Source: an uncultured bacterium (GTDB taxonomy: Bacteria > Nitrospirota > Thermodesulfovibrionia > Thermodesulfovibrionales > JdFR-86). Taken from it: DNA of 64,000 bases. A program made the translations under genes and the position numbers. Where the stretch lies: positions 11,290-75,289 of the forward strand of contig CBDVCR010000001.1 in NCBI GenBank assembly GCA_965372535.1, read 5' to 3'. Under the pieces are notes generated by a model. It saw only the letters and a list, made by a program, of their open reading frames with translations, was not told the DNA's origin and did no database searches. This document shows positions 2,719 to 45,345 of this stretch, piece after piece (the stretch's first letter is position 1; each line of letters starts with the position of its first letter).

Positions 2719-4080
2719 GTGCAACGGACGGGGAAGTCGGAAAACTTTACACAGGACACAGGCGATATGGAACTTGATATGGAACTTATAGAGAAGCTGA
2801 AAACGAGAAAAGCCCGGGTAGGGGTGATCGGACTGGGGTACGTGGGGCTTCCGCTGGTCATCCAGTTCTGCAAGGCGGGCTTCCGCGTGACCGGCTTTGA
2901 CATAGACCTTGAAAAGATTGCCATGCTTAAAGAGGGCAAGAGTTATATAAGGCATATCGAATCGTCTTTAATCGCCGGGTGCGGCCGGCTTTTTACCCCC
3001 ACTTCCGAGTATTCGGGGCTTTCCGGCATGGACTGCATAATCATCTGCGTGCCCACGCCGCTTAACAGATACCGGGAACCGGACATGTCGTTTGTCGTCG
3101 GCACTTCAAGGTCAGTCTCAAAGCACCTCCGGAGGGGCCAGCTCGTCGTCCTTGAGTCCACGACCTATCCCGGCACCACGGACGAGGACATGAGGGCGAT
3201 ACTTGAGGAGTCCGGCCTTCGGGCGGGGGCCGATTTCCATCTCGCCTACTCGCCCGAGCGCGAGGACCCGAACAATAAGGACTTCAATACCGGCAACATC
3301 CCGAAGGTCGTGGGCGGGTACACGGAAAATTGCCTCAAGGCGGCGGTGGCCCTCTACGGGCAGATTGTGGAGCGCACCGTCCCTGTTTCGTCCACTAAGG
3401 TCGCCGAGGCGGCGAAACTGCTCGAAAACATATACCGTGCGGTAAACATCGCCCTGGTAAACGAGCTGAAGGTCCTGTTTGCCAGGATGGACATCGACAT
3501 CTGCGAGGTAATAGACGCGGCCAGCACCAAGCCTTTTGGTTTTCAGGCGTTTTATCCCGGCCCGGGCCTCGGCGGGCACTGCATCCCCATCGACCCCTTC
3601 TACCTGACCTGGAAGGCGAGGGAGTACGATTTCCACACCAAGTTCATCGAACTCGCGGGCGAGATAAACGCCTCCATGCCCTACTACGTGGTCCACGAGA
3701 CCATGGAGGCCATTAATGGAAACGGAAGGAGCATTCGGGGCGCGAAAGTCCTCATCCTCGGCCTGGCGTACAAAAGAGGGGTGGACGACCCCCGCGAGTC
3801 GCCGTCGCTTAAGATTATCGAACTCCTGAAAGACCGCGGTGTCGAGGTCGACTACAACGACCCCTATATTCCGAGGCCCCCCAGGATGCGGAAATACGAC
3901 CTGGACATGGAGTCCGTGCCGTTGACCCCCGAAAACCTGAGAAAATACGACTGCGTTCTGGTGGTTACAGACCATCCCGAGTATGACCCTGATTTCATCG
4001 TCGAGCACTCAAACTTCGTCGTCGACACCAGGAACCTGATAAAGGACCGGAACGGAAACTCCAAAGTCAGGAGAGCCTGA
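2719..4080 (+). CDS. nucleotide-sugar 6-dehydrogenase (UDP-GlcNAc / UDP-ManNAc dehydrogenase, WbpA/WecC-like)
   Basis: N-terminal Rossmann motif VGVIGLGYVGLP and a catalytic-Cys region GLGGHCIP; the length fits the UDP-glucose/GDP-mannose dehydrogenase family. The true start may be the ATG at 2767. Confidence 0.85.
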   Translation: MQRTGKSENFTQDTGDMELDMELIEKLKTRKARVGVIGLGYVGLPLVIQFCKAGFRVTGFDIDLEKIAMLKEGKSYIRHIESSLIAGCGRLFTPTSEYSGLSGMDCIIICVPTPLNRYREPDMSFVVGTSRSVSKHLRRGQLVVLESTTYPGTTDEDMRAILEESGLRAGADFHLAYSPEREDPNNKDFNTGNIPKVVGGYTENCLKAAVALYGQIVERTVPVSSTKVAEAAKLLENIYRAVNIALVNELKVLFARMDIDICEVIDAASTKPFGFQAFYPGPGLGGHCIPIDPFYLTWKAREYDFHTKFIELAGEINASMPYYVVHETMEAINGNGRSIRGAKVLILGLAYKRGVDDPRESPSLKIIELLKDRGVEVDYNDPYIPRPPRMRKYDLDMESVPLTPENLRKYDCVLVVTDHPEYDPDFIVEHSNFVVDTRNLIKDRNGNSKVRRA

Positions 4081-9773: not shown

Positions 9774-9774
9774 G

Positions 9775-20832: not shown

Positions 20833-21981
20833 ATGAAAATGAAATCCTTCCTGAACGGCAAGGCCGCTTATCAGAAAAACAATGCGTGCTGCGAGCATTG
20901 TTCCGGACACTTGCTCGACCGGACGTTCGGACTATACGTCGAAGGACACTTCAGAGAGATACTGAACTGGGAAAGAAAGCGGACCGAGCGCTCACGGAAA
21001 CCTTTTATGCTCATGTTGCTGGGCATCGGAAAAATACCTCACGGCTTCGAAAGGGATACGGTAACAAGAAAGACGGCCAATGTGCTTTTTTCCGTTACCA
21101 GACAGACGGACCCGAAAGGCTGGTACCGGGACGGCTCCGTCATAGGCGTGATATTTACCGAGCCGCGTGAAATTGACGACACCACCGCCGACATAAAGAT
21201 ATATAAGGAGCTCTCCAGGGAATTAGGCCCGGAAGATGTGCGAAAAATCGAGATCAGCACCTTTGTTTATCCCGAAAAAAAAGGCAGGCAGGGGCAGTAC
21301 CGCCCGCCGGATTTGAACCTTTACCCCGACCTCTTGGACATGAATTTCTCGCGGAAGCTTTCCCTGTCGATAAAGAGGGCAATGGACGTCGCGGGCGCAG
21401 CCCTGGGAGCGCTTGTCTTTTCACCGTTTTTTGTAATTGTCCCGATTGCCATTATATTGTCGTCAAGGGGGCCGGTGCTTTTCAGGCAGGAAAGAGTCGG
21501 GCGGCAAGGGAGAAAGTTCATGTTCCTGAAGTTCAGGACCATGTTTGTCGGCAACGACGAGAGCGTCCACAGGGAATACGTAAAAACCCTTATACAAGCA
21601 CGGAACAATATCGATGAAGACGGAGTCTTCAAGATAAAGGACGACTCGCGTGTGACGAGAATCGGCGGATTTCTGAGGAAGAGCAGCCTCGACGAACTGC
21701 CCCAGTTTTTTAACGTGCTGAAGGGCGATATGTCCCTGGTGGGCCCACGGCCCCCCATTCCGTATGAACTCGATGACTATGACATATGGCACAGGAGGAG
21801 GGTGCTTGAGGCGAGGCCCGGCATCACGGGGCTCTGGCAGGTGGAGGGCAGGAGTTCCACTACCTTTGACGAGATGGTGAGGATGGACCTCAAGTACATC
21901 AGCGAGTGGTCGGTATGGCTTGACATCAAGATACTCCTTCAAACCCCCCGGGCCGTTCTGTCCTTCAAGGGCGCTTATTAG
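20833..21981 (+). CDS. polyprenyl-phosphate sugar phosphotransferase (bacterial sugar transferase family, priming enzyme)
   Basis: The C-terminal domain carries LDELPQFFNVLKGDMSLVGPRPP. Confidence 0.85.
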   Translation: MKMKSFLNGKAAYQKNNACCEHCSGHLLDRTFGLYVEGHFREILNWERKRTERSRKPFMLMLLGIGKIPHGFERDTVTRKTANVLFSVTRQTDPKGWYRDGSVIGVIFTEPREIDDTTADIKIYKELSRELGPEDVRKIEISTFVYPEKKGRQGQYRPPDLNLYPDLLDMNFSRKLSLSIKRAMDVAGAALGALVFSPFFVIVPIAIILSSRGPVLFRQERVGRQGRKFMFLKFRTMFVGNDESVHREYVKTLIQARNNIDEDGVFKIKDDSRVTRIGGFLRKSSLDELPQFFNVLKGDMSLVGPRPPIPYELDDYDIWHRRRVLEARPGITGLWQVEGRSSTTFDEMVRMDLKYISEWSVWLDIKILLQTPRAVLSFKGAY

Positions 21982-22031
21982 GCAAGAGGCATTGTGGAGA
22001 GCATGATAAAAAGGGCGGATAAAGCCGGAGG

Positions 22032-23039
22032 TTGAGTATGCTGAGGATAGGCGTCATAGGGTACGGCTACTGGGGTCCTAATATCGTGAGGAATTTCATG
22101 GGCAACGAGGGGTCCGAGGTCGTCACCGTGTGCGACTTGAACCGGAACGCGCTAAAACGGGCGCAAGGCTCCTATCCCAATATGAATGTCACCACGGACT
22201 GCCGTGAGATTATCGATTCCCCCCGCATCGACGCCGTTGCGATTGTCACGCAGGTCTCGACTCATTACGAGTTTGCCAGGAAGGCTCTTCTGAACGGTAA
22301 ACATGTCTTTGTGGAAAAACCTTTTACATCGAGCGTGGCCCAGGCGGAGGAGCTGATTGAGCTTGCGGAGAAGAAAAGCTTGAAGATAATGGTGGACCAC
22401 ACGTTTCTTTTTACCGGCGCCGTGAAAAAAATCAAGGAGCTGATAGACGCTGGCACACTGGGGGAGCTGTATTATTACGATTCCGTGAGGATAAACCTCG
22501 GTCTTTTCCAGCATGACGTAAACGTAATATGGGACCTCGCGCCGCACGATTTCTCAATCATGGACTACCTTGTCGGAGACAGAAGCACCGCGCTGGCGGC
22601 TTCCGGCCGGGCGCACGTCAACGGGAAAGAGGACGTGGCCTACGTAACGGTCTATTGCGAAAACGACATGATAGCCCACTTCAGCCTGAACTGGCTCTCG
22701 CCGGTCAAGGTAAGGTCGACGCTTATAGGCGGCGAGAAGAAGATGCTGGTCTGGAACGACGTCGAGCCCGACGAAAAGATCAAGGTTTACGACAGGGGCG
22801 TCGAGGTCAAGAGCACGGAAGGCATTTATGACCTGCTCGTAAGCTACCGCTCAGGCGACGTATGGGTGCCCAGGGTTGAGCAGACCGAGGCCCTCAAGCT
22901 TGAGGCCTCATATTTCATTGATTGCGTCATGAACGGTAAAACCCCGGTTAACGACGGACATGCCGGCCTCAGGGTGGTCCGGTTGCTTGAGGCGTGCAGC
23001 AAGTCGCTGGATAATAACGGGGAGGCTCAGCCCCTATGA
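22032..23039 (+). CDS. Gfo/Idh/MocA oxidoreductase (WbpB-like UDP-GlcNAcA 3-dehydrogenase candidate)
   Basis: N-terminal IGVIGYGYWGPN Rossmann motif and EKP motif; it sits next to the acetyltransferase and aminotransferase genes. Confidence 0.8.
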   Translation: MSMLRIGVIGYGYWGPNIVRNFMGNEGSEVVTVCDLNRNALKRAQGSYPNMNVTTDCREIIDSPRIDAVAIVTQVSTHYEFARKALLNGKHVFVEKPFTSSVAQAEELIELAEKKSLKIMVDHTFLFTGAVKKIKELIDAGTLGELYYYDSVRINLGLFQHDVNVIWDLAPHDFSIMDYLVGDRSTALAASGRAHVNGKEDVAYVTVYCENDMIAHFSLNWLSPVKVRSTLIGGEKKMLVWNDVEPDEKIKVYDRGVEVKSTEGIYDLLVSYRSGDVWVPRVEQTEALKLEASYFIDCVMNGKTPVNDGHAGLRVVRLLEACSKSLDNNGEAQPL

Positions 23040-23515
23040 GATACCTTTGCATAGCGGACGACGTCTGTCTGGGAAAAAACGTCAGGCTCTCGAAGTTCAT
23101 CAACCTGTATGGGTGCTCGGTGGGCGACGATACGAAGGTCGGAGCCTTCGTGGAAATACAGAGAAACGCCAGGGTCGGCAACAGGTGCAAGATATCAAGC
23201 CATACGTTCATCTGTGAGGGGGTTACCATCGAGGATAAAGTCTTTGTGGGGCATGGCGTTACGTTCATAAACGACGGCTACCCGCGCGCGGCGACTCCGG
23301 AAGGAAAACTGAAAACCGACGATGACTGGCGTGTGGAGCCGACCGTGGTCAGAAGCGGTGTCTCCATAGGGTCCGGAGCCACGATACTTTCAAACGTGAC
23401 CATCGGCGAGAACTCCCTCGTGGGCGCCGGGAGCGTGGTGACCAGGGACGTGCCGCCCGGGTCCGTGGTTGCCGGGAACCCGGCCAGGGTAGTAAGGAGA
23501 ATTAAGGATGAATAA
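23036..23515 (+). CDS. left-handed beta-helix N-acetyltransferase (WbpD-like)
   Basis: Hexapeptide repeats throughout; 4-nt overlap with the upstream gene. Confidence 0.85.
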   Translation: MRYLCIADDVCLGKNVRLSKFINLYGCSVGDDTKVGAFVEIQRNARVGNRCKISSHTFICEGVTIEDKVFVGHGVTFINDGYPRAATPEGKLKTDDDWRVEPTVVRSGVSIGSGATILSNVTIGENSLVGAGSVVTRDVPPGSVVAGNPARVVRRIKDE

Positions 23516-24701
23516 CAGGGTGCCGTTTCTGGACCTTGTGGCTCCCCATCTGGAGCTCAGGGAGGAGTTGGTAGCGGTTTTCAATGAAGCCCTCGATAAG
23601 GGCGGGTTTGTCGGCGGGCCAATGGTGGAGAACTTCGAAAGGGATTTCGCGCAATACTGCGGCACCAAGTATTGCGCAGGGGTGGGAAGCGGCACCGACG
23701 CCTTGAGGTTCGCCCTTATCGCGGCGGGCGTTAAGGATGGCGACGCGGTCGTCACCGTGCCGAACTCCTTTATCGCCACCTCGGAGGCGATTTCCCAGGC
23801 CGGCGCCTCGCCCGCGTTTGTGGACATCGATAGGCGCACTTACAACATGGACCCGGAGAAACTCCGTGAGTACCTGGAAACGCAATGCAATCTGGACGAG
23901 ACCTCGGGGAGGCCGGTTGACAGGAAAACGGGCAGGAGAGTCTCTGCCCTGATCCCCGTGCACCTTTACGGGCAGACGGCCGAGATGGACGCCATCCTGG
24001 GGCTTGCGGAGAAATACGGGTTATACGTAATCGAGGACGCGTGCCAGGCCCACGGGGCCGAATATTATTCCATAAAACAAAACCGATGGCTGAAGGCCGG
24101 CTCCATGGGCCTGGCCGCTGCCTTCAGTTTTTATCCCGGAAAAAACCTTGGGGCCTGCGGAGAGGGCGGGGCGGTCACGACGAACGACGAGGGTTTTGCG
24201 GCGAAGGTCAGGATGCTCCGGGACCACGGGCAGACCAGAAAGTACCGCCACGAGATGGAGGGCTACAACGGCAGGCTCGATGCCATACAGGCGGGCTTTT
24301 TGAGGGTAAAGCTCAGGCGCCTGACCGGATGGAACGAAAGCAGAAGGAGGAACGCCCGTTACTATGACGAACTCCTCGGAAAGGTGGGCGGTGTTGTGAC
24401 TCCACATGAGCCTTCCTGGTCGAGGGGGGTTTACCATCTCTACGTAATACGGAGTCCGGAAAGGGAAGGGATTGAGAAGCATCTTACGGAAAACCATGTT
24501 TTCACCGGGCTGCATTACCCGTGTCCGCTTCATCTGTTGAAGCCGTACGCTGGCAATGGCCACGGAGAGGGCGACTTCCCGGTTTCGGAAAACGTTTCGA
24601 GGGAAATCCTCTCTTTGCCCATGTACCCCGGGCTCAGGGACGTGCAGCAGGAGTGGGTAGCCGAGAAAATCACCGAGTACCTGGCATGCGAGTCGAAGTA
24701 A
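23508..24701 (+). CDS. DegT/DnrJ/EryC1-family PLP aminotransferase (WbpE-like)
   Basis: Full-length aminotransferase pattern, including the FYPGKNLGA region that carries the PLP lysine. Confidence 0.9.
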   Translation: MNNRVPFLDLVAPHLELREELVAVFNEALDKGGFVGGPMVENFERDFAQYCGTKYCAGVGSGTDALRFALIAAGVKDGDAVVTVPNSFIATSEAISQAGASPAFVDIDRRTYNMDPEKLREYLETQCNLDETSGRPVDRKTGRRVSALIPVHLYGQTAEMDAILGLAEKYGLYVIEDACQAHGAEYYSIKQNRWLKAGSMGLAAAFSFYPGKNLGACGEGGAVTTNDEGFAAKVRMLRDHGQTRKYRHEMEGYNGRLDAIQAGFLRVKLRRLTGWNESRRRNARYYDELLGKVGGVVTPHEPSWSRGVYHLYVIRSPEREGIEKHLTENHVFTGLHYPCPLHLLKPYAGNGHGEGDFPVSENVSREILSLPMYPGLRDVQQEWVAEKITEYLACESK

Positions 24702-25723
24702 GGATTATAAACCCGGTTGATTGTTCCGGGTGGGACGACATGCTGTTGTCCGCGCGGGGCCATTCGTTTTTTCATACCGCGGAATGGGCGCGGGTGCTCA
24801 GCGGGGCATACAGCTATACCCCCTTGTATTTCAGCGTGCTCGATAACGGCAGGCTGCTGGCCCTGATTCCGGTAATGGAAATAAACAGTGTTTTTACGGC
24901 AAAGCGCGGAATATCGCTTCCTTTTTCCGATTATTGCGAACCCATAATTGCCGAAAGAGGCCTGTTTTCCGTCGTATTCAACCGGATGATAAGATACGGG
25001 AAGAAGGCCGGGTGGAAGGTCGTCGAGCTGAGGGGCGGCAGGGGGATGCTGCAAGGCGTTGCCTCGTCGTATTTTTTCTCTCACACGCTGGACCTCACGC
25101 GGGACGAGGAGGGAATCTTTTCTAAATTCCGCAGCAATACGAAGCGGAATATCAAAAAGGCCATGAAAGAAGGGGTGTGCGTCGAGATATGTAACTCGCC
25201 CGAGTCGATAAAACAATTTTACCGCCTTAACTGTCTGACGAGGAAGGAGCACGGTCTTCCTCCACAGCCGTATTCGTTCTTCAGGAAGCTGCATGAAGAA
25301 GTCATTTCCAGGGACATGGGGTTCGTGGCTTTGGCGTCATATAAAGGGCAAAAGATAGCCGGCGCGGTATATTTCAGGTTCGGAGACACGGCGATGTACA
25401 AATACGGGGCATCTGACAGGAGGTTCCAGCACCTCAGGGCAAACAACATGGTCATGTGGGAATCGATAAAATGGCACGCGGAGAAAGGCTACAGGCGTTT
25501 TTGCTTTGGAAGAACGGAGCCTGAAAACAAGGGGTTGAGAGTTTTCAAGTCCGGGTGGGGAGGAGAGGAGAAAGTCATTTGCTATTACAAGTATGACCTG
25601 AGGAAAGAAGATTTCGTGTGCAATGGCGCAAGAGCGGGCGGTCTGCGGCGCCGGATTTTAAAAAGGATGCCCGTCCCCCTGCTGCAGGCCGCGGGAACGG
25701 TGTTGTACAAACATATGGGATAG
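24686..25723 (+). CDS. FemAB-like / GNAT-fold acyl(aminoacyl)transferase associated with PEP-CTERM loci
   Basis: The start MRVEVRIINP overlaps the upstream stop. The two-lobed FemAB-like layout includes YKYGASD..ANNMVMWE. Confidence 0.65.
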   Translation: MRVEVRIINPVDCSGWDDMLLSARGHSFFHTAEWARVLSGAYSYTPLYFSVLDNGRLLALIPVMEINSVFTAKRGISLPFSDYCEPIIAERGLFSVVFNRMIRYGKKAGWKVVELRGGRGMLQGVASSYFFSHTLDLTRDEEGIFSKFRSNTKRNIKKAMKEGVCVEICNSPESIKQFYRLNCLTRKEHGLPPQPYSFFRKLHEEVISRDMGFVALASYKGQKIAGAVYFRFGDTAMYKYGASDRRFQHLRANNMVMWESIKWHAEKGYRRFCFGRTEPENKGLRVFKSGWGGEEKVICYYKYDLRKEDFVCNGARAGGLRRRILKRMPVPLLQAAGTVLYKHMG

Positions 25724-25766
25724 GCGACGTAAAGGGCGTTCGTCTTCAAGCGCAATAATTTTTGAA

Positions 25767-26696
25767 ATGGTCACCAAAATTTACTACCATCTCAAACCGG
25801 CGATTCCGAGGGCCCTGCAGATTCATGTGCGGAGAAAATATGTCGCCCGAAAGCGTCCGAAGTGCGCCGGCATATGGCCGATTGACGAATCAGCGGGCAC
25901 TCCCCCGGCCTGGTGGAAGGGATGGCCGGAGAAAAAACAGTTTGCCCTTGTCCTTACGCACGACGTTGATACGGCAAAGGGCCAAAAAAAGTGCGGTGAT
26001 TTAATCAAGCTTGAAAAGGAAGCCGGTTTCCGTTCTTCCTTTAATTTTGTCCCCGAGCGCTATAAGGTTTCCTCTGAACTTCGTGATTATCTCATGCGAA
26101 ACGGGTTTGAAGTCGGGGTGCACGATTTGTACCATGACGGCAGGCTTTATAGCTCGAAAAAAGAGTTCGCGAAGCGGGCAGAGAAGATCAACAGGTATCT
26201 GAAGGAGTGGGATTCCGTTGGGTTCAGGTCCGGCTCGATGATGTGTAATTTACGATGGATACGCTCCCTGGACATAGAATACGATGCCTCGACTTTTGAT
26301 ACGGATCCTTTTGAGCCGCAACCTTATGGAACAGGGACCATTTTTCCATTCAGGGTGGTGGGCAACCATGGCCGAAAAGGATATATTGAACTCCCATATA
26401 CTCTCCCGCAGGATTTCACCCTTTTTGTCCTTATGCGGGAAAAGAGTATTGACATCTGGAAGAAAAAACTTGACTGGATAGTCGAATGCGGCGGCATGGC
26501 CCTCTTAAACACACACCCGGATTATATGTGCTTCGGCTCGACGGGGGCAGGCAACGAAGAGTACCAGTATAAGTATTATGAGGAGTTTCTCATGTATATG
26601 AAAACGGAATACAAGGGACAATGCTGGCACGTTTTACCAAGGGAACTGGCTGGTTTCTTTCAGGAATCGATGCCTGCGGAGACGAAGAACCAGTGA
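25767..26696 (+). CDS. polysaccharide deacetylase-family protein
   Basis: NodB-like LVLTHDVDT motif and later His-containing motifs. Confidence 0.65.
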   Translation: MVTKIYYHLKPAIPRALQIHVRRKYVARKRPKCAGIWPIDESAGTPPAWWKGWPEKKQFALVLTHDVDTAKGQKKCGDLIKLEKEAGFRSSFNFVPERYKVSSELRDYLMRNGFEVGVHDLYHDGRLYSSKKEFAKRAEKINRYLKEWDSVGFRSGSMMCNLRWIRSLDIEYDASTFDTDPFEPQPYGTGTIFPFRVVGNHGRKGYIELPYTLPQDFTLFVLMREKSIDIWKKKLDWIVECGGMALLNTHPDYMCFGSTGAGNEEYQYKYYEEFLMYMKTEYKGQCWHVLPRELAGFFQESMPAETKNQ

Positions 26697-26707
26697 GGGA
26701 CTATCAC

Positions 26708-27928
26708 ATGAGAATCTACATCGAGCGTGATGGCTGCAAGAGGAGGGGAGCCGAGGTATCGAAGCTCGGCAGGTACTTCGTTTTAAACGGCTACGAAATC
26801 GTTGACAAGCCCGAAAAAGCGGATTATATCTTATTGGCTACATGTGCGTTTAAGAGGACGGAAGAGGAGAACTCATTAAGCAGGGTCGAGGCCCTTCAGG
26901 GCTACAACGCTAAAATGATAGTCTTCGGCTGTCTTCCGGATATCGCCCCTTCCAGATTTCGGCAATTCTCGGAAATAAACCATGTTTCACCCAAAAACAT
27001 TAATAATATCGATTCATATTTCGATAACATCAGCATTAAATTCTCTGAAATCGAAGAGCAGGATGAAAGCATTAATGAGATAGAACCTACACCTTTAAAA
27101 ACCGCTTTTGCCAAGCTTCTGAGAGAATTTGAATTTTCCGGAGAAACTTTCAACAAAACAGTACGGTATGGGAAAAAGAGGGTCAAGGATGTTTTCAAAA
27201 ATAAGAAGAGTTATTACCTAATTACAAGCAGGGGATGCCTTGGAGAATGCAGTTACTGTGCAATTAAATATGCTATCGGCCCAATCAATAGCAGGCCCCT
27301 TGAAGTTGTGACGAAGGAATACAGGAAGTGTGTTGAGGCCGGATATCGTAATTTTATCGTTGCCGGCGATGATGTGGGCGCGTATGGAATTGACAGGAAC
27401 AGCAGCTTTCCGGAACTTGTGGAATGTCTTTTGGGGGAGACGTCCGATAATGGCGGGATAGGTTTCCATATAGACGAAATTCATCCAAGGTGGTTGATAC
27501 GGTACCATGACAGGTTTATTGAACTCCTTGCATCAAAGAGGATAAAGAGCGTCATGTGCCCCGTCCAATCGGGGAATAACAGGATTCTTGGACTGATGAA
27601 GAGGAATCATACCGCGGAGGAGCTTCTTCAAGTCATTGGAGGCATACAGCGGACCGACCCGGCAATAAGGCTCTCCACACAGATAATGGTCGGTTTTCCT
27701 TCCGAGACTGATGGGGAGTTTGCCGATACCCTCGAGTTCATGAAAAAAGCGCGCTTCAGCTCCGTAATAATATTTCCATATCACGAGAAGGAAAAAACCC
27801 CGGCCTCGAAGTTGCCGGACAAGATGCCGGAACATGTGATTCAGCGGCGAATTAAGGAAGCCCAGGAATATCTCAAACAGGAGAATATCCAGTATTTCTT
27901 TAACTGTGCGCATGTCGAAACAATCTGA
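26708..27928 (+). CDS. radical SAM enzyme with a methylthiotransferase-type N-terminal domain and no TRAM domain
   Basis: Three N-terminal Cys are present (DGCKRR, LATCAF, VFGCLPD). The radical-SAM motif is CLGECSYC. Confidence 0.75.
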   Translation: MRIYIERDGCKRRGAEVSKLGRYFVLNGYEIVDKPEKADYILLATCAFKRTEEENSLSRVEALQGYNAKMIVFGCLPDIAPSRFRQFSEINHVSPKNINNIDSYFDNISIKFSEIEEQDESINEIEPTPLKTAFAKLLREFEFSGETFNKTVRYGKKRVKDVFKNKKSYYLITSRGCLGECSYCAIKYAIGPINSRPLEVVTKEYRKCVEAGYRNFIVAGDDVGAYGIDRNSSFPELVECLLGETSDNGGIGFHIDEIHPRWLIRYHDRFIELLASKRIKSVMCPVQSGNNRILGLMKRNHTAEELLQVIGGIQRTDPAIRLSTQIMVGFPSETDGEFADTLEFMKKARFSSVIIFPYHEKEKTPASKLPDKMPEHVIQRRIKEAQEYLKQENIQYFFNCAHVETI

Positions 27929-29195
27929 GCCGCCTGCCGTTGCCCCCGAAGCTCTTTTAGATAACGCAAATATGTTTGGACGAGACAGAAATTCAATGCC
28001 GGCCGTTGTCCTTTCGAGCCATACCAGCGGCATGGGGGTAATATCCGCTCTCGGGTTAATGGGCGTGCCTGTGGTGGCCGTCTATTACGAGAAAAAGGAT
28101 ATGGGGTATGTTTCAAAATATGTAAAAGAGAGGATATGCGCTCCACATCCGGAAAAGCATGAAAGCGAGTTCATAAGCCTGCTTTTGGAAAAAGCCTCAC
28201 GCTACCCGGGTTGCCTGCTTATCCCGGCTGATGACGAAACACTCGGGGTGGTTTCGAGGCATAAGGCCCTGCTTGGGCGATACTACATTGTGGCATGTAC
28301 GGGCTGGGAAGTCGTGGAAAGGTTGATCGACAAAAAGTACATATATGCCCTGGCGGATGCAATCGGCATAGCGACCCCGAAAACGCTGGTTCCCGGGTCA
28401 GCCGACGACGTGGAGAGCTATGGCAGGAGCATTGAATACCCTTGCGTTGTAAAGCCATGCCAAAGTCACAGGTATTTTGAAGTTTTCAGGGTAAAGATGG
28501 TTTGCGTCGAAAACCTTGACCATATGTTGTCTGTTTACAAACAAGCCGCGGCCGTGGGTATCGAGGTTATGCTGCAGGAATACATTCCCGGCGATGATAG
28601 CCGGGGCGTGAATTATAATTCGTATTTCTGGGATGGGGAACCCTTGGTGGAGTTTACCGCGCAGAAGGTAAGGCTGTCGCCCCCCGGGTTTGGCGTCCCC
28701 CGGGTGGTGCGGAGCAAGGATATCCCGGAAATAATCGAACCGGGACGCAAGATTCTCAAGGCCCTGGGGTATTACGGGTATTCCTGCACCGAGTTTAAAA
28801 AAGACCCGCGAGACGGCGGCTATAAGTTCATGGAAGTAAACGGCCGCCACAACCGGTCCACGCTTCTTTCCGTGCGGTGCGGCATAAATTTCCCCTGGCT
28901 CGAATACAGGCACCTGATGCGTGACGAACTTCCGGCGGCGACAGGCTACAGAACCGGCGTCTACTGGATTGATGAATTCAGGGATATGTTCAGCAGCGCA
29001 AGGTACAGGAAAGAAGAACGGTATCCTTTAGGTCACTATATCCGTCCATATGTCAGCCCGCACGTATTCTCGGTGTTGCACTGGAAGGACCCCATGCCCT
29101 TTGTCAAAAGATGTGTCGACTCCATCAAGATGGTTTCCCGACATGTCCTTTCTTTTTTGAAAAACGATTTTCCGAGGAAAGAGGTGCAAAAATAA
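27906..29195 (+). CDS. ATP-grasp carboxylate-amine ligase-like enzyme
   Basis: ATP-grasp pattern (..YPCVVKP.., ..MLQEYIPG.., ..EVNGR..). The likely ATG is at 27912. Confidence 0.7.
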   Translation: MRMSKQSEPPAVAPEALLDNANMFGRDRNSMPAVVLSSHTSGMGVISALGLMGVPVVAVYYEKKDMGYVSKYVKERICAPHPEKHESEFISLLLEKASRYPGCLLIPADDETLGVVSRHKALLGRYYIVACTGWEVVERLIDKKYIYALADAIGIATPKTLVPGSADDVESYGRSIEYPCVVKPCQSHRYFEVFRVKMVCVENLDHMLSVYKQAAAVGIEVMLQEYIPGDDSRGVNYNSYFWDGEPLVEFTAQKVRLSPPGFGVPRVVRSKDIPEIIEPGRKILKALGYYGYSCTEFKKDPRDGGYKFMEVNGRHNRSTLLSVRCGINFPWLEYRHLMRDELPAATGYRTGVYWIDEFRDMFSSARYRKEERYPLGHYIRPYVSPHVFSVLHWKDPMPFVKRCVDSIKMVSRHVLSFLKNDFPRKEVQK

Positions 29196-29989
29196 TGCGT
29201 AAAGACGCTATCCGGCTCGAAGAGGAACGGCTGAGGGGTATTAACGATATCCGGGAATATCCGAGCTTGCATGAGAGGCACAGGATATTTCCCGGTATTC
29301 TTGAACTGCGGAGCCACGGTAGAATACTCGACATAGCCGCGGGAGTGGGCGTGGTGGGGAAGAGAATTCAGGAACATTACCACGGTGAGCTGTTATGTAA
29401 CGATATCTGCCCGACATGTGTGAGGACCATGCAAAAAAGCGGTCTTCAAACGGTGTCTTTTGACATCGACGACAGTGAAAAGCCATATCCGTTCCCTGAC
29501 GGTCATTTCAACGCGATTATCGCACTCGCTTCCATTGAGCACTTAATCCACGTGGACCATTTTTTGAAAGAGATTTACCGCCTGCTGGACGATGGCGGAT
29601 GCCTGTACCTTTCCGCTCCCAACTATTCGGGTCTGTCATACCTGATGCCTTTTTTGCTGACGGGCAAGACGTTTCATGACCCCTTTGGCGAGTCTTCGCG
29701 TTACGAGTTTTACGCTCATGTCAGGTATTTCACATATCGGACGCTCCTTGAGTTTGTGAGTTCGTTTGGATTCGCTGCGGACACCGTCTATCTTGCCGTG
29801 CCGGAAGGCAGTTCGCGTTTCAAGAAATTGAAATCGAACTCAAAGACGAAGGCATTAACTTTTAAGTATGTCATGAAATATATTTATAAGTTCTTTTCTC
29901 CCCGATGGGCGGCTGAGCCGGTAGTCTGTTTCAGGAAATCCGGCGATAGCCGGAAAGTAAATTTCAAACCAAAGAAAATTGTCCTTTAA
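29195..29989 (+). CDS. class I SAM-dependent methyltransferase
   Basis: Motif I ILDIAAGVGVVG; the ATG overlaps the upstream stop. Confidence 0.75.
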   Translation: MRKDAIRLEEERLRGINDIREYPSLHERHRIFPGILELRSHGRILDIAAGVGVVGKRIQEHYHGELLCNDICPTCVRTMQKSGLQTVSFDIDDSEKPYPFPDGHFNAIIALASIEHLIHVDHFLKEIYRLLDDGGCLYLSAPNYSGLSYLMPFLLTGKTFHDPFGESSRYEFYAHVRYFTYRTLLEFVSSFGFAADTVYLAVPEGSSRFKKLKSNSKTKALTFKYVMKYIYKFFSPRWAAEPVVCFRKSGDSRKVNFKPKKIVL

Positions 29990-29997
29990 GTTCTTTA

Positions 29998-31059
29998 ATG
30001 TCGAGGAGAGTCCCGGTGCAAAAAAAAATCTGGATTGACCTTGATAACTCGCCGCATGTGCCGTTTTTCAAGCCGATCATTGATGAATTGGACAGAAGGG
30101 GTTTCACGATTATTCTGACTGCTCGTGACTGTTTCCAGGTGTGCGGTCTTGCAAATTATTATAAGCTGCGCTACAAACGAATAGGGCGACACTATGGAAA
30201 AAACAAGTTTCTCAAGGTGTTTGGCCTGCTGTTAAGGACTGTGCAGCTTACGCCTGCTGTCTGGAGTGAAAAACCGGACCTGGCGGTGTCTCATGGGTCA
30301 AGAGCCCAGTTGACCCTCGCAAAATTACTGAAAATACCTTCGATAGTGATAACCGATTATGAACACGCCAAGGCGCTTATTAAATTCATTTCCCCGTCGT
30401 GGGTAATAATGCCCGAGGTGATTCGAGATGATGAATTCAATCTCGACAAGGCAAGGGTTCTCAAATATCCAGGCATCAAGGAAGATGTCTATGTCCCCGG
30501 CTTCAGACCGTCTTATAACATACTGGATGAACTGGGGATCAAAGAGAGCGACATAGTGGTCACCATCCGCCCGCCGGCGGCAGAGGCACATTACCGCAGT
30601 CCCCAGAGCGAAGAGCTGTTCAGGGCGGTAATGGAGTTTTTATGCGAAAAGGAATGCGTCCGGCTTGTCATCTTGCCGAGAAACGAAAAACAGGCCGCTC
30701 GATTAAAGAAAATTTGGCCGTCTCTGTTTGCTGAAAGGAAAATCATTATACCGAATCATGTGGTCGACGGGCTCAATTTAATATGGCATTCGGACCTTGT
30801 CATCAGCGGAGGCGGCACCATGAACAGGGAGGCCGCGGCATTGGGCGTTCCGGTATACAGCATCTTCAGGGGAAAAATCGGAGCTGTTGACCGGCATCTG
30901 GCTGACATTGGACGTCTTACGCTTCTGGAAAACGTGGAGGACGTCAGGGCGCAAATAAAATTGTTAAAGCATCATCGACCGAACAAGCTCAATGTTTGTG
31001 GCGTCACGCTAAAAAGCATCGTAGATAGTATTGATGAAGTGATGGCATTCAGGTCATAA
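29998..31059 (+). CDS. DUF354-family protein (GT-B / epimerase-like fold)
   Basis: N-terminus KIWIDLDNSPHVPFFKPIIDELDRRGFTIILTARD is typical of DUF354. Confidence 0.6.
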   Translation: MSRRVPVQKKIWIDLDNSPHVPFFKPIIDELDRRGFTIILTARDCFQVCGLANYYKLRYKRIGRHYGKNKFLKVFGLLLRTVQLTPAVWSEKPDLAVSHGSRAQLTLAKLLKIPSIVITDYEHAKALIKFISPSWVIMPEVIRDDEFNLDKARVLKYPGIKEDVYVPGFRPSYNILDELGIKESDIVVTIRPPAAEAHYRSPQSEELFRAVMEFLCEKECVRLVILPRNEKQAARLKKIWPSLFAERKIIIPNHVVDGLNLIWHSDLVISGGGTMNREAAALGVPVYSIFRGKIGAVDRHLADIGRLTLLENVEDVRAQIKLLKHHRPNKLNVCGVTLKSIVDSIDEVMAFRS

Positions 31060-32568: not shown

Positions 32569-32629
32569 TAAGAAATAATCAACAGATTATCTGCATTTGA
32601 AAGAAATTCTATCAAATAGGGAAAAGCAT

Positions 32630-33538: not shown

Positions 33539-33599
33539 ATAATATTCTTACCTTGAAAAAGAATATATTGTTTGAATAAATTGATCTGAAAGGAGCATT

Positions 33600-34727: not shown

Positions 34728-34830
34728 ATGATGAGTGTGATTTGTATCACGTTTTTTTTTATGGTTTTCCTTTAATTTATTAATATAGCAGATTTAATCT
34801 GCTCTGAATGCAAAGTGCAGAGGAGAAGAT

Positions 34831-37727: not shown

Positions 37728-37913
37728 ATGAAAAACAACGATCTCTGCATAAAGATCCGTGACAAGAAAGCCTGAATCGGCGTTATTGGCTTGGGATACG
37801 TCGAACGTCTGCTTGTTATCCATTTCTGCAAGGCGGGGGTTCTGGGTAATAGGCTTCGACAATGACGAAGATAAGGCTTCTCGGGAAGGTAAAAGCTATA
37901 TCAAAACCCATTG
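37728..37913 (+). pseudogene. decayed N-terminal fragment of a second WbpA/WecC-like nucleotide-sugar dehydrogenase
   Basis: It reads MKNNDLCIKIRDKKA*IGVIGLGYVERLLVIHFCKAG, then a +1 shift in a G-run, then FWVIGFDNDEDKASREGKSYIKTH*. This parallels KARVGVIGLGYVGLPLVIQFCKAGFRVTGFDIDLEKIAMLKEGKSYIRHI of the intact gene at 2719. Confidence 0.7.
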
Positions 37914-37958
37914 ACAGTGCCCATGTTGCACAATGCGGCAAGACCGCATGAGGCCACT

Positions 37959-39131
37959 ATGAAAAAAATCTGCATTGTCGCCGGGGCGAGGCCCAATTTC
38001 ATGAAGGTCGCCCCCTTGATAAGGGAGCTGTCCCGGGTGCGGGAAATCGAGACGCTGATTGTCCATACCGGGCAGCACTACGACAGGGACATGTCGGAAA
38101 GTTTTTTCGATGACCTGGAAATTCCCAGGCCCCATTTGTTCCTTGGCGTTGGTTCCGGTTCACACGCTGAACAAACGGCCAAAATAATGATTTCTTTCGA
38201 GGAGGTTCTGCTTCAGAAAAAGCCGGAACTTGTCATTGTTGTCGGGGATGTCAACTCTACGTTGGCCTGCGCATTGGTAGCTGTAAAACATGGCATAAAA
38301 ATTGCGCATATTGAGGCGGGCTTAAGGAGTTTTGATAAATCCATGCCGGAGGAAATCAACAGGATTGTAACTGATGCGATTTCAGACTTTTTGTTTGTAA
38401 CGGAGGAAAGTGCGATATTGAACCTTAGTAGAGAAGGGGTTTCGAAAGGAAAAATCTTTTTTGTCGGAAACGTAATGATTGATACTTTATTGCAATATAG
38501 GGAAAAAGCGAGACACTCGGATATTTTAAATAAAATTGGATTAAACAGCGCCTCCAATAGTGTTTTGGATTATGCGGTTCTCACTTTGCACCGCCCGTCA
38601 AATGTGGACGACAGGGGGAAGTTTATGGAAATCATTGATGCGGTGAGAGAAATTTCCGAGGTGGTGCCAGTCGTTTTTCCTGCTCACCCAAGGACGATGA
38701 AACACATAAAGGACTTCGGATATGAGGAATATTTCAAAATCTCAGAAGATAGCCTGAGTTATAAAGTCGCCAAGAGGGGAATTTACTGTATCGGTCCTCT
38801 TGGATACCTGGACTTCCTCCATTTGACCTCTCTGGCAAAACTGGTCTTGACCGATTCAGGCGGAGTCCAGGAGGAAACGACCATTCTCGGTGTTCCATGT
38901 GTCACCATTAGGGAAAATACCGAAAGACCAATAACCGTTACACATGGGACAAACAGAATTGCAGGGACGGAAAAGCTGTCAATTATTAATGAGTGTTTTG
39001 ATGCGTTGCGTAACAGGAATGCTAAAACCGCTATCCCACCGCTATGGGACGGAAATGCGGCAAAGAGGGTGGTTGCCATTCTATTGGAGATATTTAATCA
39101 TTCTGATGGGAATATCCGTGAGATGGCTTAA
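37959..39131 (+). CDS. non-hydrolysing UDP-N-acetylglucosamine (or UDP-GlcNAc3NAcA) 2-epimerase (WecB/WbpI-like)
   Basis: The protein starts MKKICIVAGARPNFMKVAPL; the HTGQHYD and ..LTDSGGVQEE.. motifs are present. Confidence 0.9.
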   Translation: MKKICIVAGARPNFMKVAPLIRELSRVREIETLIVHTGQHYDRDMSESFFDDLEIPRPHLFLGVGSGSHAEQTAKIMISFEEVLLQKKPELVIVVGDVNSTLACALVAVKHGIKIAHIEAGLRSFDKSMPEEINRIVTDAISDFLFVTEESAILNLSREGVSKGKIFFVGNVMIDTLLQYREKARHSDILNKIGLNSASNSVLDYAVLTLHRPSNVDDRGKFMEIIDAVREISEVVPVVFPAHPRTMKHIKDFGYEEYFKISEDSLSYKVAKRGIYCIGPLGYLDFLHLTSLAKLVLTDSGGVQEETTILGVPCVTIRENTERPITVTHGTNRIAGTEKLSIINECFDALRNRNAKTAIPPLWDGNAAKRVVAILLEIFNHSDGNIREMA

Positions 39132-45220: not shown

Positions 45221-45345
45221 AAAAGAGCCGCCGGAGAAATCCTCTCTGGCGGCCCGGCGGACATAGGATAGCGTTTGCTGACATCCTTTAGTCCCGTCGC
45301 TCTGCGTCCCCGGGTTTCCCCAGGTTTGCTCTGAGCAGAGAACCT
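45221..45345 (-). promoter_or_regulatory. GEMM-I (cyclic-dinucleotide) riboswitch-like leader with intrinsic terminator, upstream of the crp-like gene
   Basis: The RNA reads ..CAGAGCAAACC-UGGG-GAAA-CCCG-GGGACGCAGAGC..GGAC-UAAA-GGAU..AUCC-UAU-GUCC.., then GCCGCCAGAGA..UCUCCGGCGGC-UCUUUU. This matches the Vc2 core GGCAAACC..GAAA..GGGACGCAAAGC. Confidence 0.75.

What the first reader, a model, noticed from the sequence alone, without database searches (positions are those of the whole stretch)
24686..31059. An unusual tailoring block inside the EPS locus
The block encodes FemAB-like, deacetylase, MTTase-like radical SAM, ATP-grasp, methyltransferase and DUF354 proteins. The radical SAM protein keeps the three N-terminal cysteines of methylthiotransferases (DGC, ATC, FGC) and the CxxxCxxC cluster. 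It lacks the C-terminal TRAM RNA-binding domain, so its substrate is unlikely to be tRNA or a ribosomal protein. It sits between a deacetylase and an ATP-grasp ligase, with a FemAB-like transferase and a SAM methyltransferase adjacent. Together these predict amino-acid or other amide decoration, and possibly a radical-mediated (thio)methylation, of the sugar repeat unit. I do not know of such chemistry being described for exosortase-associated polysaccharides.
Basis: inference. Interest (0 to 1): 0.55.

Follow-up and report, generated by a model that had tools for sequence, protein, structure and literature searches.

The report
TRAM-less methylthiotransferase-like enzyme in sugar-tailoring cassette
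Inside an exosortase-type exopolysaccharide locus sits a modular set of amino-sugar tailoring genes that includes an uncharacterised radical SAM enzyme built like a tRNA/protein methylthiotransferase but without its RNA/protein-binding domain, so it may put sulfur on a sugar side chain, a reaction I found no report of.

Summary
Six tightly packed, co-directional genes at 24686-31059 encode a FemX-like transferase, a CE4-fold deacetylase-like protein with no Pfam hit, a radical SAM protein, an ATP-grasp ligase, a class I methyltransferase and a DUF354 protein. The radical SAM protein has the UPF0004 and radical SAM domains and all six MTTase cysteines, but no TRAM domain.

The radical SAM protein belongs to no named family; it scores below every MTTase cut-off. 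It falls in a clade of 400-415 aa TRAM-less proteins. In several bacterial phyla and one MAG binned as archaeal, this clade lies next to the same genes.

The six genes are not one fixed unit. They are modules: GFO/hexapeptide/DegT (upstream, 22032-24701), FemAB plus CE4-like, ATP-grasp plus methyltransferase, and DUF354. These modules occur far more widely without the radical SAM gene, which is a rare add-on. A few close homologues stand alone.

Best reading: an aminoacyl or peptidyl decoration of a 2,3-diamino sugar, possibly a uronic acid, with radical sulfur insertion or methylthiolation as an optional extra step. The chemistry is inferred, not shown. Geobacter sp. DSM 9736 carries a minimal version and is a good test organism.

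The parts
2719..4080 (+). Context: nucleotide-sugar 6-dehydrogenase, closest to UDP-ManNAc dehydrogenase and TviB (UDP-GlcNAc C6 dehydrogenase). A possible source of a hexosaminuronic acid.
   Evidence: TIGR03026 at 417 bits, above its cut-off. UDP-ManNAc dehydrogenase and TviB models are the next best hits.
20833..21981 (+). Context: polyprenyl-phosphate sugar-phosphate transferase (Bac_transf). It starts the tightly packed run of genes and precedes the same genes in related loci.
   Evidence: TIGR03025 at 285 bits. Conserved position in L001, L004, L008, L011, L013, L014, L017 and L018.
22032..23039 (+). GFO/IDH/MocA oxidoreductase, resembling UDP-GlcNAc(A) 3-dehydrogenases (WbpB-like). First step to a 3-amino sugar.
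   Evidence: NF040723 at 172 bits, below its cut-off. Co-occurs with the block in most related loci.
23036..23515 (+). Hexapeptide-repeat N-acetyltransferase (WbpD-like).
   Evidence: NeuD/PglB/VioB family hit. Syntenic in related loci.
23508..24701 (+). DegT/DnrJ/EryC1 PLP aminotransferase (WbpE-like).
   Evidence: PF01041 at 351.9 bits. Syntenic in related loci.
24686..25723 (+). FemX/FemAB-like GNAT-fold transferase. Predicted aminoacyl-tRNA-dependent N-aminoacyl transferase.
   Evidence: PF13480 and PF02388 above their cut-offs. TIGR03019 at 118.8 bits, below its cut-off of 260. FemX structures at E=4.5e-8.
25767..26696 (+). CE4-fold metal-dependent de-N-acylase-like protein. It belongs to a very large family with no Pfam model.
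   Evidence: No Pfam or NCBIfam hit. At least 7999 homologues, the top 120 at 60-68% identity. The AF2 model matches CE4 structures by Foldseek. Residues I read as the CE4 motifs are conserved.
26708..27928 (+). TRAM-less MTTase-like radical SAM enzyme. Auxiliary-cluster cysteines C10, C46, C75; radical SAM cysteines C177, C181, C184; clade-specific C400.
27912..29195 (+). ATP-grasp carboxylate-amine ligase. JGI names relatives 'D-aspartate ligase' or 'ATP-grasp carboligase'. It is a frequent partner of the radical SAM gene.
   Evidence: PF02786 at 22.1 bits against a cut-off of 19.8. PDB 2pn1 at 3e-5. Source names for homologues. Co-occurrence.
29195..29989 (+). Class I SAM methyltransferase. 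It forms a tight pair with the ATP-grasp gene, also in loci that lack the radical SAM gene.
   Evidence: Methyltransf_23, _25 and _11 hits. ATP-grasp followed by a 264-aa MTase in L091 and L092.
29998..31059 (+). DUF354 protein with weak similarity to UDP-GlcNAc 2-epimerase. Predicted epimerase, or glycosyltransferase for the modified sugar.
   Evidence: PF04007 at 161.9 bits. Epimerase_2 at 22.5 bits over residues 186-289. PDB 9cm8 at E=0.01. Found next to Epimerase_2 genes in L007/L011 and L092.
37911..39131 (+). Context: non-hydrolysing UDP-GlcNAc 2-epimerase (WecB/WbpI-like).
   Evidence: TIGR00236 at 342 bits, above its cut-off.

Best explanation
The finding is the variable tailoring part of one long run of tightly packed genes (Bac_transf through DUF354, 20833-31059) that builds a decorated amino sugar for the exosortase-associated EPS.

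Proposed pathway:
1. The GFO oxidoreductase, DegT aminotransferase and hexapeptide acetyltransferase convert UDP-GlcNAc to a 2,3-diamino/diacetamido sugar. If the upstream UDP-HexNAc 6-dehydrogenase takes part, the starting sugar is the uronic acid.
2. The CE4-like enzyme removes an N-acyl group and exposes an amine.
3. The FemX-like transferase (from aminoacyl-tRNA) and the ATP-grasp ligase (from an acyl-phosphate) attach one or more amino acids by amide bonds. These are the two enzyme types that build peptidoglycan side chains on nucleotide precursors.
4. The class I methyltransferase methylates the product.
5. DUF354 epimerises the modified sugar or transfers it.
6. The TRAM-less MTTase-like radical SAM enzyme is an optional extra. 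It would use its radical SAM cluster to abstract a hydrogen from an unactivated C-H of the sugar-borne side chain, or of its free precursor. Its three-cysteine auxiliary cluster would then deliver sulfur as -SCH3 or -SH, as RimO does at the beta-carbon of Asp88.

Shown: gene content, domain architecture, fold assignments, conservation of the cysteines, and recurrent co-localisation. Inferred: every substrate, the order of steps, and the sulfur chemistry.
For: - Tightly packed genes: overlaps or gaps of 50 nt or less from 20833 to 31059, and no strong intrinsic terminator inside the block.
- MTTase architecture: the UPF0004 and radical SAM domains are present and six cysteines are invariant in 36 of 36 relatives. 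The best solved-structure matches by sequence are RimO at 2.6e-34 and MiaB at 7e-33. The AF2 model (pLDDT 87.7) matches MtaB, MiaB and RimO with TMq 0.72-0.74.
- TRAM, the macromolecule-binding domain, is absent.
- Close orthologues (38-50% identity) lie beside GFO/Hexa/DegT, FemAB, CE4-like, ATP-grasp, MTase and/or DUF354 genes. This holds in Negativicutes, Nitrospirota, Ignavibacteriales, Pseudomonadota, Chlorobiaceae, Thermodesulfobacteriota and Geobacteraceae MAGs, in Geobacter sp. DSM 9736, and in one MAG binned as Nanobdellati.
- Stand-alone copies nest inside this clade in an NJ tree.
- The FemAB-like protein matches FemX, which acts on a UDP-linked precursor.
- Fem enzymes and ATP-grasp ligases are the two established ways of adding side-chain amino acids to nucleotide precursors (PMC2655667).
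- CE4 fold with conserved residues I read as the CE4 motifs. The structural neighbours include ArnD, and WbmS, which its PDB title describes as involved in O-antigen biosynthesis.
- Precedent: the C. difficile type B flagellin locus combines a FemAB-like protein, an ATP-grasp protein and a sugar aminotransferase, and makes a peptidylamido-sugar (PMC5207246).
Against: - No biochemical or structural datum exists for any member of the clade.
- I know of no methylthio- or thiol-bearing polysaccharide substituent (own knowledge).
- The radical SAM gene is dispensable for the cassette: L088-L092 lack it.
- Some close homologues (L009, L010, L016, L033) have no glycan genes within about 10 kb.
- In many loci a second class I methyltransferase, MT2, sits directly next to the radical SAM gene. 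It is absent from this window. This could mean the radical SAM enzyme does not do its own methyl transfer.
- A clade-specific seventh cysteine, C400, could act as an H-atom donor, which would point to a different reaction.
- The ATP-grasp could instead amidate a uronic acid carboxyl.
- 'D-aspartate ligase' is only a database label.
Confidence: 0.4

Rival explanations
1. Same glycan-tailoring context, but the radical SAM enzyme is not a methylthiotransferase. It could catalyse thiolation only, with a separate methyltransferase finishing the job. It could also catalyse a radical epimerisation, C-methylation, dehydration or cyclisation, with the auxiliary cluster serving to bind the substrate or relay electrons.
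For: - It scores below every MTTase cut-off.
- A dedicated class I MTase (MT2) lies immediately next to the radical SAM gene in 11 distinct loci.
- The clade-specific C400, six residues from the C-terminus, is present in 30 of 30 members. It could act as an H-atom donor, as in radical SAM epimerases (own knowledge).
- Distant family members sit among other radical SAM tailoring enzymes (19 of 80 immediate neighbours), which suggests varied chemistry.
Against: - The UPF0004 three-cysteine auxiliary-cluster domain is invariant.
- Every characterised protein with this domain plus this core is a methylthiotransferase (PMC2952846).
- The best structural matches are MiaB, RimO and MtaB.
- This window has no MT2, so the enzyme here would have to act without it.
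Confidence: 0.3
2. The radical SAM enzyme modifies a substrate unrelated to the polysaccharide, such as a tRNA, a protein or a small metabolite. Its position in the EPS locus would then reflect co-regulation or chance.
For: Close homologues in two Geobacteraceae MAGs (L009, L010), a Lentisphaerae MAG (L016) and a Latescibacterota MAG (L033) show no block genes in the 7-21 kb of contig examined. L009's neighbours are FUSC, MBL-fold, OYE and MFS genes. Anton et al. found that substrate discrimination in MTTases lies outside TRAM (PMC2952846).
Against: - The macromolecule-binding TRAM domain is missing across the whole clade.
- The gene is embedded with 11-nt and -17-nt junctions between tailoring genes.
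- The same neighbours recur across several phyla in shuffled orders, which argues for selection rather than shared ancestry of one arrangement.
- The stand-alone copies nest inside the block-associated clade.
Confidence: 0.08
3. The cassette installs non-amino-acid acyl or amide groups, and the radical SAM enzyme acts on the sugar ring itself. The FemAB-like protein would use an acyl-CoA, as other Acetyltransf_6 GNATs do. The ATP-grasp would amidate the C6 carboxyl of a uronic acid with a small amine.
For: The best Pfam hit of the FemAB-like protein is the generic Acetyltransf_6. A UDP-HexNAc 6-dehydrogenase is present at 2719-4080. ATP-grasp amidoligases acting on glucuronate are known in Campylobacter capsule synthesis (own knowledge). 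Related cassettes carry formyltransferase and PS-decarboxylase-like genes.
Against: The protein has significant sequence similarity to the tRNA-dependent enzymes FemX, FmhB and an aminoacyl-tRNA-dependent peptide synthase, and to the FemAB Pfam model above its cut-off.
Confidence: 0.15

Closest known systems
Radical SAM methylthiotransferases MiaB, RimO, MtaB and e-MtaB/CDKAL1
   Same: N-terminal UPF0004 domain with three cysteines for an auxiliary [4Fe-4S] cluster. Radical SAM core with CxxxCxxC. These are the best sequence and fold matches.
   Different: No TRAM domain. Scores fall below the TIGR00089 subfamily cut-off and below all four subgroup cut-offs. There is an extra clade-specific C-terminal cysteine. 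The genomic context is glycan tailoring, not translation.
Clostridioides difficile type B flagellin glycan locus (CDR20291_0244-0247), which makes a sulfonated peptidylamido-sugar
   Same: A FemAB-like transferase, an ATP-grasp ligase and a sugar aminotransferase are grouped next to glycosyltransferases. The product carries a peptide amide-linked to an amino sugar (PMC5207246).
   Different: That locus has no radical SAM enzyme, CE4-like protein or DUF354. It modifies a protein O-glycan, not an EPS. Homology between the two sets of genes was not tested here.
Peptidoglycan side-chain enzymes: FemX (aminoacyl-tRNA dependent) and D-aspartate ligase Aslfm (ATP-grasp)
   Same: The same two enzyme superfamilies, both acylating an amine on a UDP-linked precursor (PMC2655667). 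The FemAB-like protein matches FemX structures at E=4.5e-8. JGI labels relatives of the ATP-grasp 'D-aspartate ligase'.
   Different: The acceptor here is presumably an amino sugar, not a lysine side chain. The similarity of the ATP-grasp to Aslfm was not tested directly.
WbpA/B/E/D/I pathway of Pseudomonas aeruginosa, and its Methanococcus maripaludis counterpart, to UDP-2,3-diacetamido-2,3-dideoxy-hexuronic acids (own knowledge)
   Same: A GFO-type 3-dehydrogenase, DegT aminotransferase, hexapeptide acetyltransferase, WecB-type 2-epimerase and UDP-HexNAc 6-dehydrogenase are all present in the window.
   Different: All hits are below the equivalog cut-offs. The dehydrogenase lies 18 kb away. 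No downstream FemAB, CE4, ATP-grasp or radical SAM tailoring is known for those pathways.
Canonical XrtA/PEP-CTERM locus pair: TIGR03019 (FemAB family) and TIGR03006 (polysaccharide deacetylase)
   Same: The same kind of adjacent pair in the same kind of locus.
   Different: The window's FemAB-like protein scores 118.8 against a cut-off of 260. The CE4-like protein does not hit TIGR03006 at all. As far as I know, the function of the canonical pair is also unknown.
ArnD and WbmS, CE4-type de-N-acylases of lipid- or nucleotide-linked amino sugars
   Same: Among the nearest structural neighbours of the CE4-like protein: 8t0j at 7.8e-9 and 3hft at 4.3e-7.
   Different: Only 14-20% identity. No formyltransferase partner is present in this window.

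Membership tests
Radical SAM methylthiotransferases (MTTases) | N-terminal UPF0004 domain with three conserved cysteines (auxiliary [4Fe-4S] cluster) | tested here: met
   PF00919 at 49.5 bits against a cut-off of 27. C10, C46 and C75 are invariant in 36 of 36 relatives.
Radical SAM methylthiotransferases (MTTases) | Radical SAM core with a CxxxCxxC motif | tested here: met
   PF04055 at 68 bits. C177, C181 and C184 are invariant.
Radical SAM methylthiotransferases (MTTases) | C-terminal TRAM domain (PF01938), the third of the three defining domains (PMC2952846) | tested here: not met
   No TRAM hit at E up to 10. The TIGR00089 alignment stops at profile position 363 of 429. None of the 120 listed homologues carries PF01938.
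Radical SAM methylthiotransferases (MTTases) | Score above the curated cut-off of the family or of one of its four subgroups | tested here: not met
   TIGR00089 236.1 against 251. e-MtaB 194.6 against 314.7. MtaB 186.8 against 357. RimO 179.5 against 357. MiaB 172 against 355.
Radical SAM methylthiotransferases (MTTases) | Catalyses insertion of -SCH3 using two SAM molecules | not testable with these tools
   Needs enzymology.
Fem-type aminoacyl-tRNA transferases / TIGR03019 PEP-CTERM FemAB | FemAB or Acetyltransf_6 GNAT domains above the Pfam cut-offs, and similarity to solved Fem enzymes | tested here: met
   PF02388 at 56.4 bits against 24. PF13480 at 66.8 bits against 22. FemX at 4.5e-8 and FmhB at 2.4e-8.
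Fem-type aminoacyl-tRNA transferases / TIGR03019 PEP-CTERM FemAB | TIGR03019 equivalog cut-off | tested here: not met
   118.8 bits against a cut-off of 260.35.
Fem-type aminoacyl-tRNA transferases / TIGR03019 PEP-CTERM FemAB | Use of aminoacyl-tRNA as donor | not testable with these tools
   Needs biochemistry.
CE4 polysaccharide deacetylases (NodB fold) | Match to PF01522 or to TIGR03006 | tested here: not met
   No hit even at E=10.
CE4 polysaccharide deacetylases (NodB fold) | NodB-type fold | tested here: met
   AF2 model with pLDDT 88.2. By Foldseek against the PDB, 38 hits at E of 1e-3 or better, almost all CE4 enzymes; the top hit is 3rxz at 6e-12 with TM 0.64-0.68.
CE4 polysaccharide deacetylases (NodB fold) | Catalytic and metal-binding motifs (Asp, His-x3-His, Arg, Leu-x-His) | tested here: inconclusive
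   H65-D66, H119/H123 and H250-P-D are invariant, and R154 is at least 90% conserved, in 37 sequences. Assigning these to the CE4 motifs rests on my reading of the sequence and on the weak 3rxz alignment, not on a structural superposition.
ATP-grasp carboxylate-amine ligases | ATP-grasp nucleotide-binding domain | tested here: met
   PF02786 at 22.1 bits against 19.8, which is marginal. PDB 2pn1 at 3e-5 and Ddl at 4e-4. Several PRK12767 models match but below their cut-offs.
ATP-grasp carboxylate-amine ligases | Orthology to D-aspartate ligase Aslfm | not tested
   Rests only on JGI source names for homologues. No Aslfm sequence was available for comparison.
DUF354 (PF04007) | Full-length match above the cut-off | tested here: met
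   161.9 bits against 22, covering residues 10-335 of 353.
XrtA/PEP-CTERM exopolysaccharide locus | PrsT, PrsK, PrsR, exporter, chain-length determinant, tyrosine kinase, ATPase and outer-membrane protein models above their cut-offs | tested here: met
   TIGR02917, TIGR02916, TIGR02915, TIGR03027, TIGR03007, TIGR03018, TIGR03015 and TIGR03016 all score above their cut-offs.
XrtA/PEP-CTERM exopolysaccharide locus | Exosortase of the XrtA subtype | tested here: not met
   The generic exosortase model TIGR02602 passes (139.7 against 105.6). XrtA scores 144.5 against 208, and XrtC 170 against 300, so the subtype is undefined.

The most novel reading that the evidence does not exclude
The clade is a fifth functional class of methylthiotransferase-type radical SAM enzymes. 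Its substrate would be a carbohydrate-borne side chain rather than tRNA or ribosomal protein S12, for example an aspartyl or other aminoacyl group amide-linked to a 2,3-diamino sugar. The product would be a thioether- or thiol-decorated polysaccharide, found in both bacteria and archaea. The clade-specific C-terminal cysteine would take over a role in sulfur relay or substrate handling in place of TRAM.
Probability: 0.3. Interest if true: 0.8.

Novelty: new variant of a known kind. Interest (0 to 1): 0.58.

Why it matters
Only three substrates are known for MTTases: i6A and t6A in tRNA, and Asp88 of S12. A TRAM-less class acting on glycan precursors would widen radical sulfur insertion to carbohydrates. 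It would also predict a surface-polysaccharide modification (a thioether) that I have not seen described.

The work also delimits a very widespread modular cassette whose product is unknown. Its parts are GFO/DegT/hexapeptide, FemX-like plus a CE4-like family with at least 8000 homologues and no Pfam model, ATP-grasp plus methyltransferase, and DUF354. The FemAB/deacetylase pair has long been a signature of exosortase loci without a known function, so solving this cassette would help explain it.

A cultured organism with a minimal version, Geobacter sp. DSM 9736, makes the question directly testable.

Tried and rejected
- **Source contig.** A look-up of the window's own contig through P0001 found nothing on record. 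The source genome is not among the GTDB representatives; the best hit there is 50% identical.
- **Literature.** Searches for TRAM-less MTTases in polysaccharide loci, for MTTase plus ATP-grasp plus FemAB, for an MTTase sequence similarity network, and for AglU/MMP1084 found nothing relevant. A prefix search for DUF354 returned only DUF354x families, and the whole-word search gave four uninformative papers.
- **Apparent MT2-rSAM fusion in L020.** A 676-aa ORF appeared. It was an artefact of taking the first in-frame start codon. The two genes are in different frames and merely adjacent.
- **Is the wider TRAM-less family always glycan-linked?** No. A Bacteroidales clade sits in a GT/flippase/pyruvyl-transferase/SPASM locus. 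Thermoplasmata members sit next to thiolase, SDR and HGD-D genes. The immediate neighbours of distant members are mostly other radical SAM enzymes and methyltransferases.
- **Representative-library search.** It shows at least 150 clusters of TRAM-less length at E of 1e-103 or better. Its coarse thresholds do not separate the clade from canonical MTTases.
- **Rejected: the CE4-like protein is not a deacetylase relative because Pfam finds nothing.** The fold search contradicts this.
- **Rejected: the stand-alone homologues are a separate functional clade.** They nest within the block-associated clade.

Full report
**1. What is in the sequence**

The interval 24686-31059 holds six + strand genes. 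Their junctions measure +43, +11, -17, -1 and +8 nt. They continue a run of equally tight genes that begins at the priming transferase (20833). No strong intrinsic terminator lies inside the block.

- FemAB-like, 24686-25723: PF13480 at 66.8 bits, PF02388 at 56.4 bits, and TIGR03019 at 118.8 bits, which is below its cut-off of 260.
- Radical SAM, 26708-27928: UPF0004 plus Radical_SAM.
- ATP-grasp, 27912-29195: weak, with PF02786 at 22.1 bits against a cut-off of 19.8.
- Class I methyltransferase, 29195-29989.
- DUF354, 29998-31059: 161.9 bits.

The 'deacetylase' (25767-26696) has no Pfam or NCBIfam hit, even at E=10. Its AlphaFold model (pLDDT 88.2) nevertheless matches CE4/NodB-fold enzymes: 3rxz at 6e-12, followed by HP0310, ArnD, PuuE and WbmS. 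The residues I read as the CE4 motifs are conserved in 37 homologues: H65-D66, H119xxxH123 and H250-P-D are invariant, and R154 is at least 90% conserved.

The surrounding 8.7-44 kb is a genuine XrtA/PEP-CTERM-type EPS locus. Its exosortase does not reach the XrtA-specific cut-off.

**2. The radical SAM protein**

The motifs DGC, ATC, FGC and CLGECSYC are visible in the translation. All six cysteines are invariant in 36 aligned relatives.

There is no TRAM domain. The TIGR00089 match ends at profile position 363 of 429, and PF01938 is not found at any threshold.

The closest solved proteins by sequence are RimO (2.6e-34) and MiaB (7e-33). The AF2 model (pLDDT 87.7) is most like MtaB, MiaB and RimO, with TMq 0.72-0.74. 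B12-dependent radical SAM enzymes come well behind.

The protein scores below the cut-off of the MTTase subfamily model and of all four subgroup models. MTTases are defined by three domains, four subgroups and six cysteines (PMC2952846). This protein meets two domain criteria and fails the third. It works like an MTTase on paper but is not a member of any described subgroup.

About 284 homologues were found. The near-full-length ones are mostly 385-435 aa, and none has a TRAM annotation. A profile search of 1.84 billion representatives listed at least 150 clusters at 50% identity with E of 1e-103 or better, and nearly all are of that length.

A seventh cysteine, C400, lies six residues from the C-terminus. 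It is present in all 30 members with at least 37% identity and absent from the six distant ones. Its role is unexplained.

**3. Is the block conserved?**

I took neighbourhoods from the look-up of encoding contigs and from a scan of one genome per GTDB species. I then compared the window's proteins against the ORFs of every locus with phmmer.

Among orthologues with 38-50% identity, the same companions recur in shuffled order. They appear in:
- a Negativicutes MAG;
- two Nitrospirota MAGs;
- Ignavibacteriales, Pseudomonadota, Chlorobiaceae, Thermodesulfobacteriota and Geobacteraceae MAGs;
- one MAG binned as Nanobdellati (DPANN), where mis-binning cannot be excluded.

*(a) The conserved set includes the three upstream genes.* GFO oxidoreductase, hexapeptide acetyltransferase and DegT aminotransferase (22032-24701) recur with the block. 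This is the gene logic of the WbpB/E/D route to 2,3-diacetamido sugars (own knowledge). A UDP-HexNAc 6-dehydrogenase-like gene at 2719-4080 and a WecB gene at 37911-39131 are also in the window.

*(b) The six genes are separable modules.* The cultured Geobacter sp. DSM 9736 has only FemAB-CE4-rSAM after the three sugar genes. The FemAB+CE4 pair occurs without the radical SAM gene in L088-L090. The pair of ATP-grasp plus 264-aa methyltransferase does so in L091 and L092. L092 carries essentially the whole cassette except the radical SAM gene.

The CE4-like family has at least 7999 database homologues, the top 120 at 60-68% identity, and no Pfam model. The ATP-grasp family has at least 907. The radical SAM gene is therefore a rare optional add-on.

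*(c) Some close homologues stand alone.* L009, L010 and L033 have no block genes within reach, and L016 has only a methyltransferase next to the radical SAM gene. In an NJ tree L009, L010 and L016 nest inside the block-associated clade, so they look like relocations rather than a different family; L033 branches just outside it.

A second methyltransferase, MT2 (about 290-330 aa), lies directly beside the radical SAM gene in 11 distinct loci. It is absent from this window.

More distant TRAM-less relatives (about 30-35% identity) are in other contexts. One is a Bacteroidales polysaccharide locus with a pyruvyl transferase and a SPASM enzyme. Others lie among further radical SAM enzymes, and some are unrelated to glycans.

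GC3 falls in steps. It is about 0.72 in the sugar genes, 0.53-0.66 in the block, and 0.31-0.37 in the Wzy and glycosyltransferase genes. This fits a mosaic, exchangeable centre of the locus.

**4. Most likely mechanism**

*Shown:* the architecture, the folds and the recurrent linkage.

*Inferred:* UDP-GlcNAc, or its uronic acid, is converted to a 3-amino/3-acetamido derivative. The CE4-like enzyme frees an amine. The FemX-like enzyme (aminoacyl-tRNA donor) and the ATP-grasp ligase (acyl-phosphate donor) then add amino acid(s) by amide bonds.

These are exactly the two enzyme types that build peptidoglycan side chains on UDP-linked precursors (PMC2655667). The FemAB-like protein matches FemX structures. 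JGI labels relatives of the ATP-grasp as D-aspartate ligase, but that is a lead, not a test.

A genetic precedent for a FemAB-like, ATP-grasp and aminotransferase set making a peptidylamido-sugar exists in C. difficile type B flagellin (PMC5207246).

The radical SAM enzyme keeps the auxiliary cluster that in MiaB and RimO carries the sulfur to be inserted. It would thiolate or methylthiolate an unactivated C-H of the appended residue, or of its free precursor, in the manner of RimO on the beta-carbon of Asp. I give this full scheme about 0.4. The narrower sulfur-insertion claim gets about 0.3.

**5. Rivals**

- *A different radical reaction on the same glycan substrate (0.3).* Options are thiolation only with MT2 doing the methylation, epimerisation with C400 as H-donor, or C-methylation. 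The frequent MT2 partner, the extra cysteine and the sub-threshold MTTase scores favour this. The invariant auxiliary-cluster domain argues against it.
- *A substrate unrelated to the glycan (0.08).* The stand-alone copies favour this. The loss of TRAM, the gene's embedding between tailoring genes, and its linkage across phyla argue against it.
- *Acyl rather than aminoacyl decoration, or amidation of a uronic acid (0.15).* This cannot be excluded.

**6. Comparison with what is known, and novelty**

Individually the genes belong to known superfamilies, and the general idea of amino-acid-decorated amino sugars has precedent. The following appear to be undescribed in the papers I could search:
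- a TRAM-less clade of MTTase-type enzymes with an extra conserved cysteine;
- its recurrent placement in an amino-sugar tailoring cassette in bacteria and possibly archaea;
- the size of the CE4-like family that has no Pfam model.

The absence of papers in the searched library is not proof of novelty. I rate this a new variant of a known kind, with interest 0.58. The chemistry is untested, but the hypothesis is specific and a cultured minimal system exists.

Noticed in passing
window 48789-48887 (-), 45245-45340 (-), 58788-58871 (+), 63633-63708 (+): Four c-di-GMP-I (GEMM-I, RF01051) riboswitch aptamers score above the gathering threshold (50.8-63.7 bits). One overlaps the annotated start of a PKD/fn3 surface-protein gene (46877-48808, -). 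Another lies upstream of a 1003-aa transglutaminase-like protein gene (58919-61930). This suggests cyclic-dinucleotide control of surface proteins next to the EPS locus.
   Followed up: no
window 25767-26696, and homologues P0121-P0240: The CE4-fold protein belongs to a very large family. All but one of the 8000 scored candidates had E of 1e-5 or better, and the top 120 are 60-68% identical. The family has no Pfam or NCBIfam model. In the six contexts I examined it lies next to or near a FemAB-like gene in five, in both bacteria and Asgard/DPANN-binned contigs.
   Followed up: partly
window 26708-27928, residue C400 (about nt 27905-27907): A seventh cysteine lies six residues from the C-terminus. 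It is conserved in 30 of 30 members of the block-associated clade and absent from distant TRAM-less relatives. Its role is unknown.
   Followed up: partly
L001 9248-10126; L008 11204-12142; L012 11246-12118; L016 8988-9971; L018 9108-10001, and others: A second class I methyltransferase, MT2 (about 290-330 aa), lies immediately beside the TRAM-less radical SAM gene in 11 distinct loci. In L001 a Trm112-like gene follows it. It is missing from this window.
   Followed up: partly
window 31258-35973: The Wzy-like polymerase, GT2, GT4 and a right-handed beta-helix protein have GC3 of only 0.31-0.37, against about 0.7 in the conserved export genes. This is a sharply foreign, probably horizontally exchanged core of the EPS locus.
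   Followed up: partly
window 39774-40694: The exosortase passes the generic exosortase model but neither the XrtA cut-off (144.5 against 208) nor the XrtC cut-off (170 against 300). Meanwhile PrsT, PrsK and PrsR are clear XrtA-system members. A second histidine kinase and sigma-54 regulator pair lies at 8763-11154.
   Followed up: no
L039 7557-13378, with similar arrangements in L035, L041, L043, L046, L048, L062 and L064: Bacteroidales MAGs share a conserved arrangement: GT-like gene, flippase, TRAM-less MTTase-like radical SAM gene, polysaccharide pyruvyl transferase, SPASM-domain protein. This is a second, different polysaccharide context for the wider family.
   Followed up: partly
L090 3204-8930; L089 1930-7825: Cassettes that lack the radical SAM gene carry other tailoring enzymes in the same cassette, next to or near the FemAB-like and CE4-like genes. 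These include a B12-radical SAM enzyme, a formyltransferase, a PS-decarboxylase-like protein, DUF362, a Pro_dh-like protein, and extra DegT and Acetyltransf_6 genes. This looks like a hypervariable side-chain tailoring slot.
   Followed up: no
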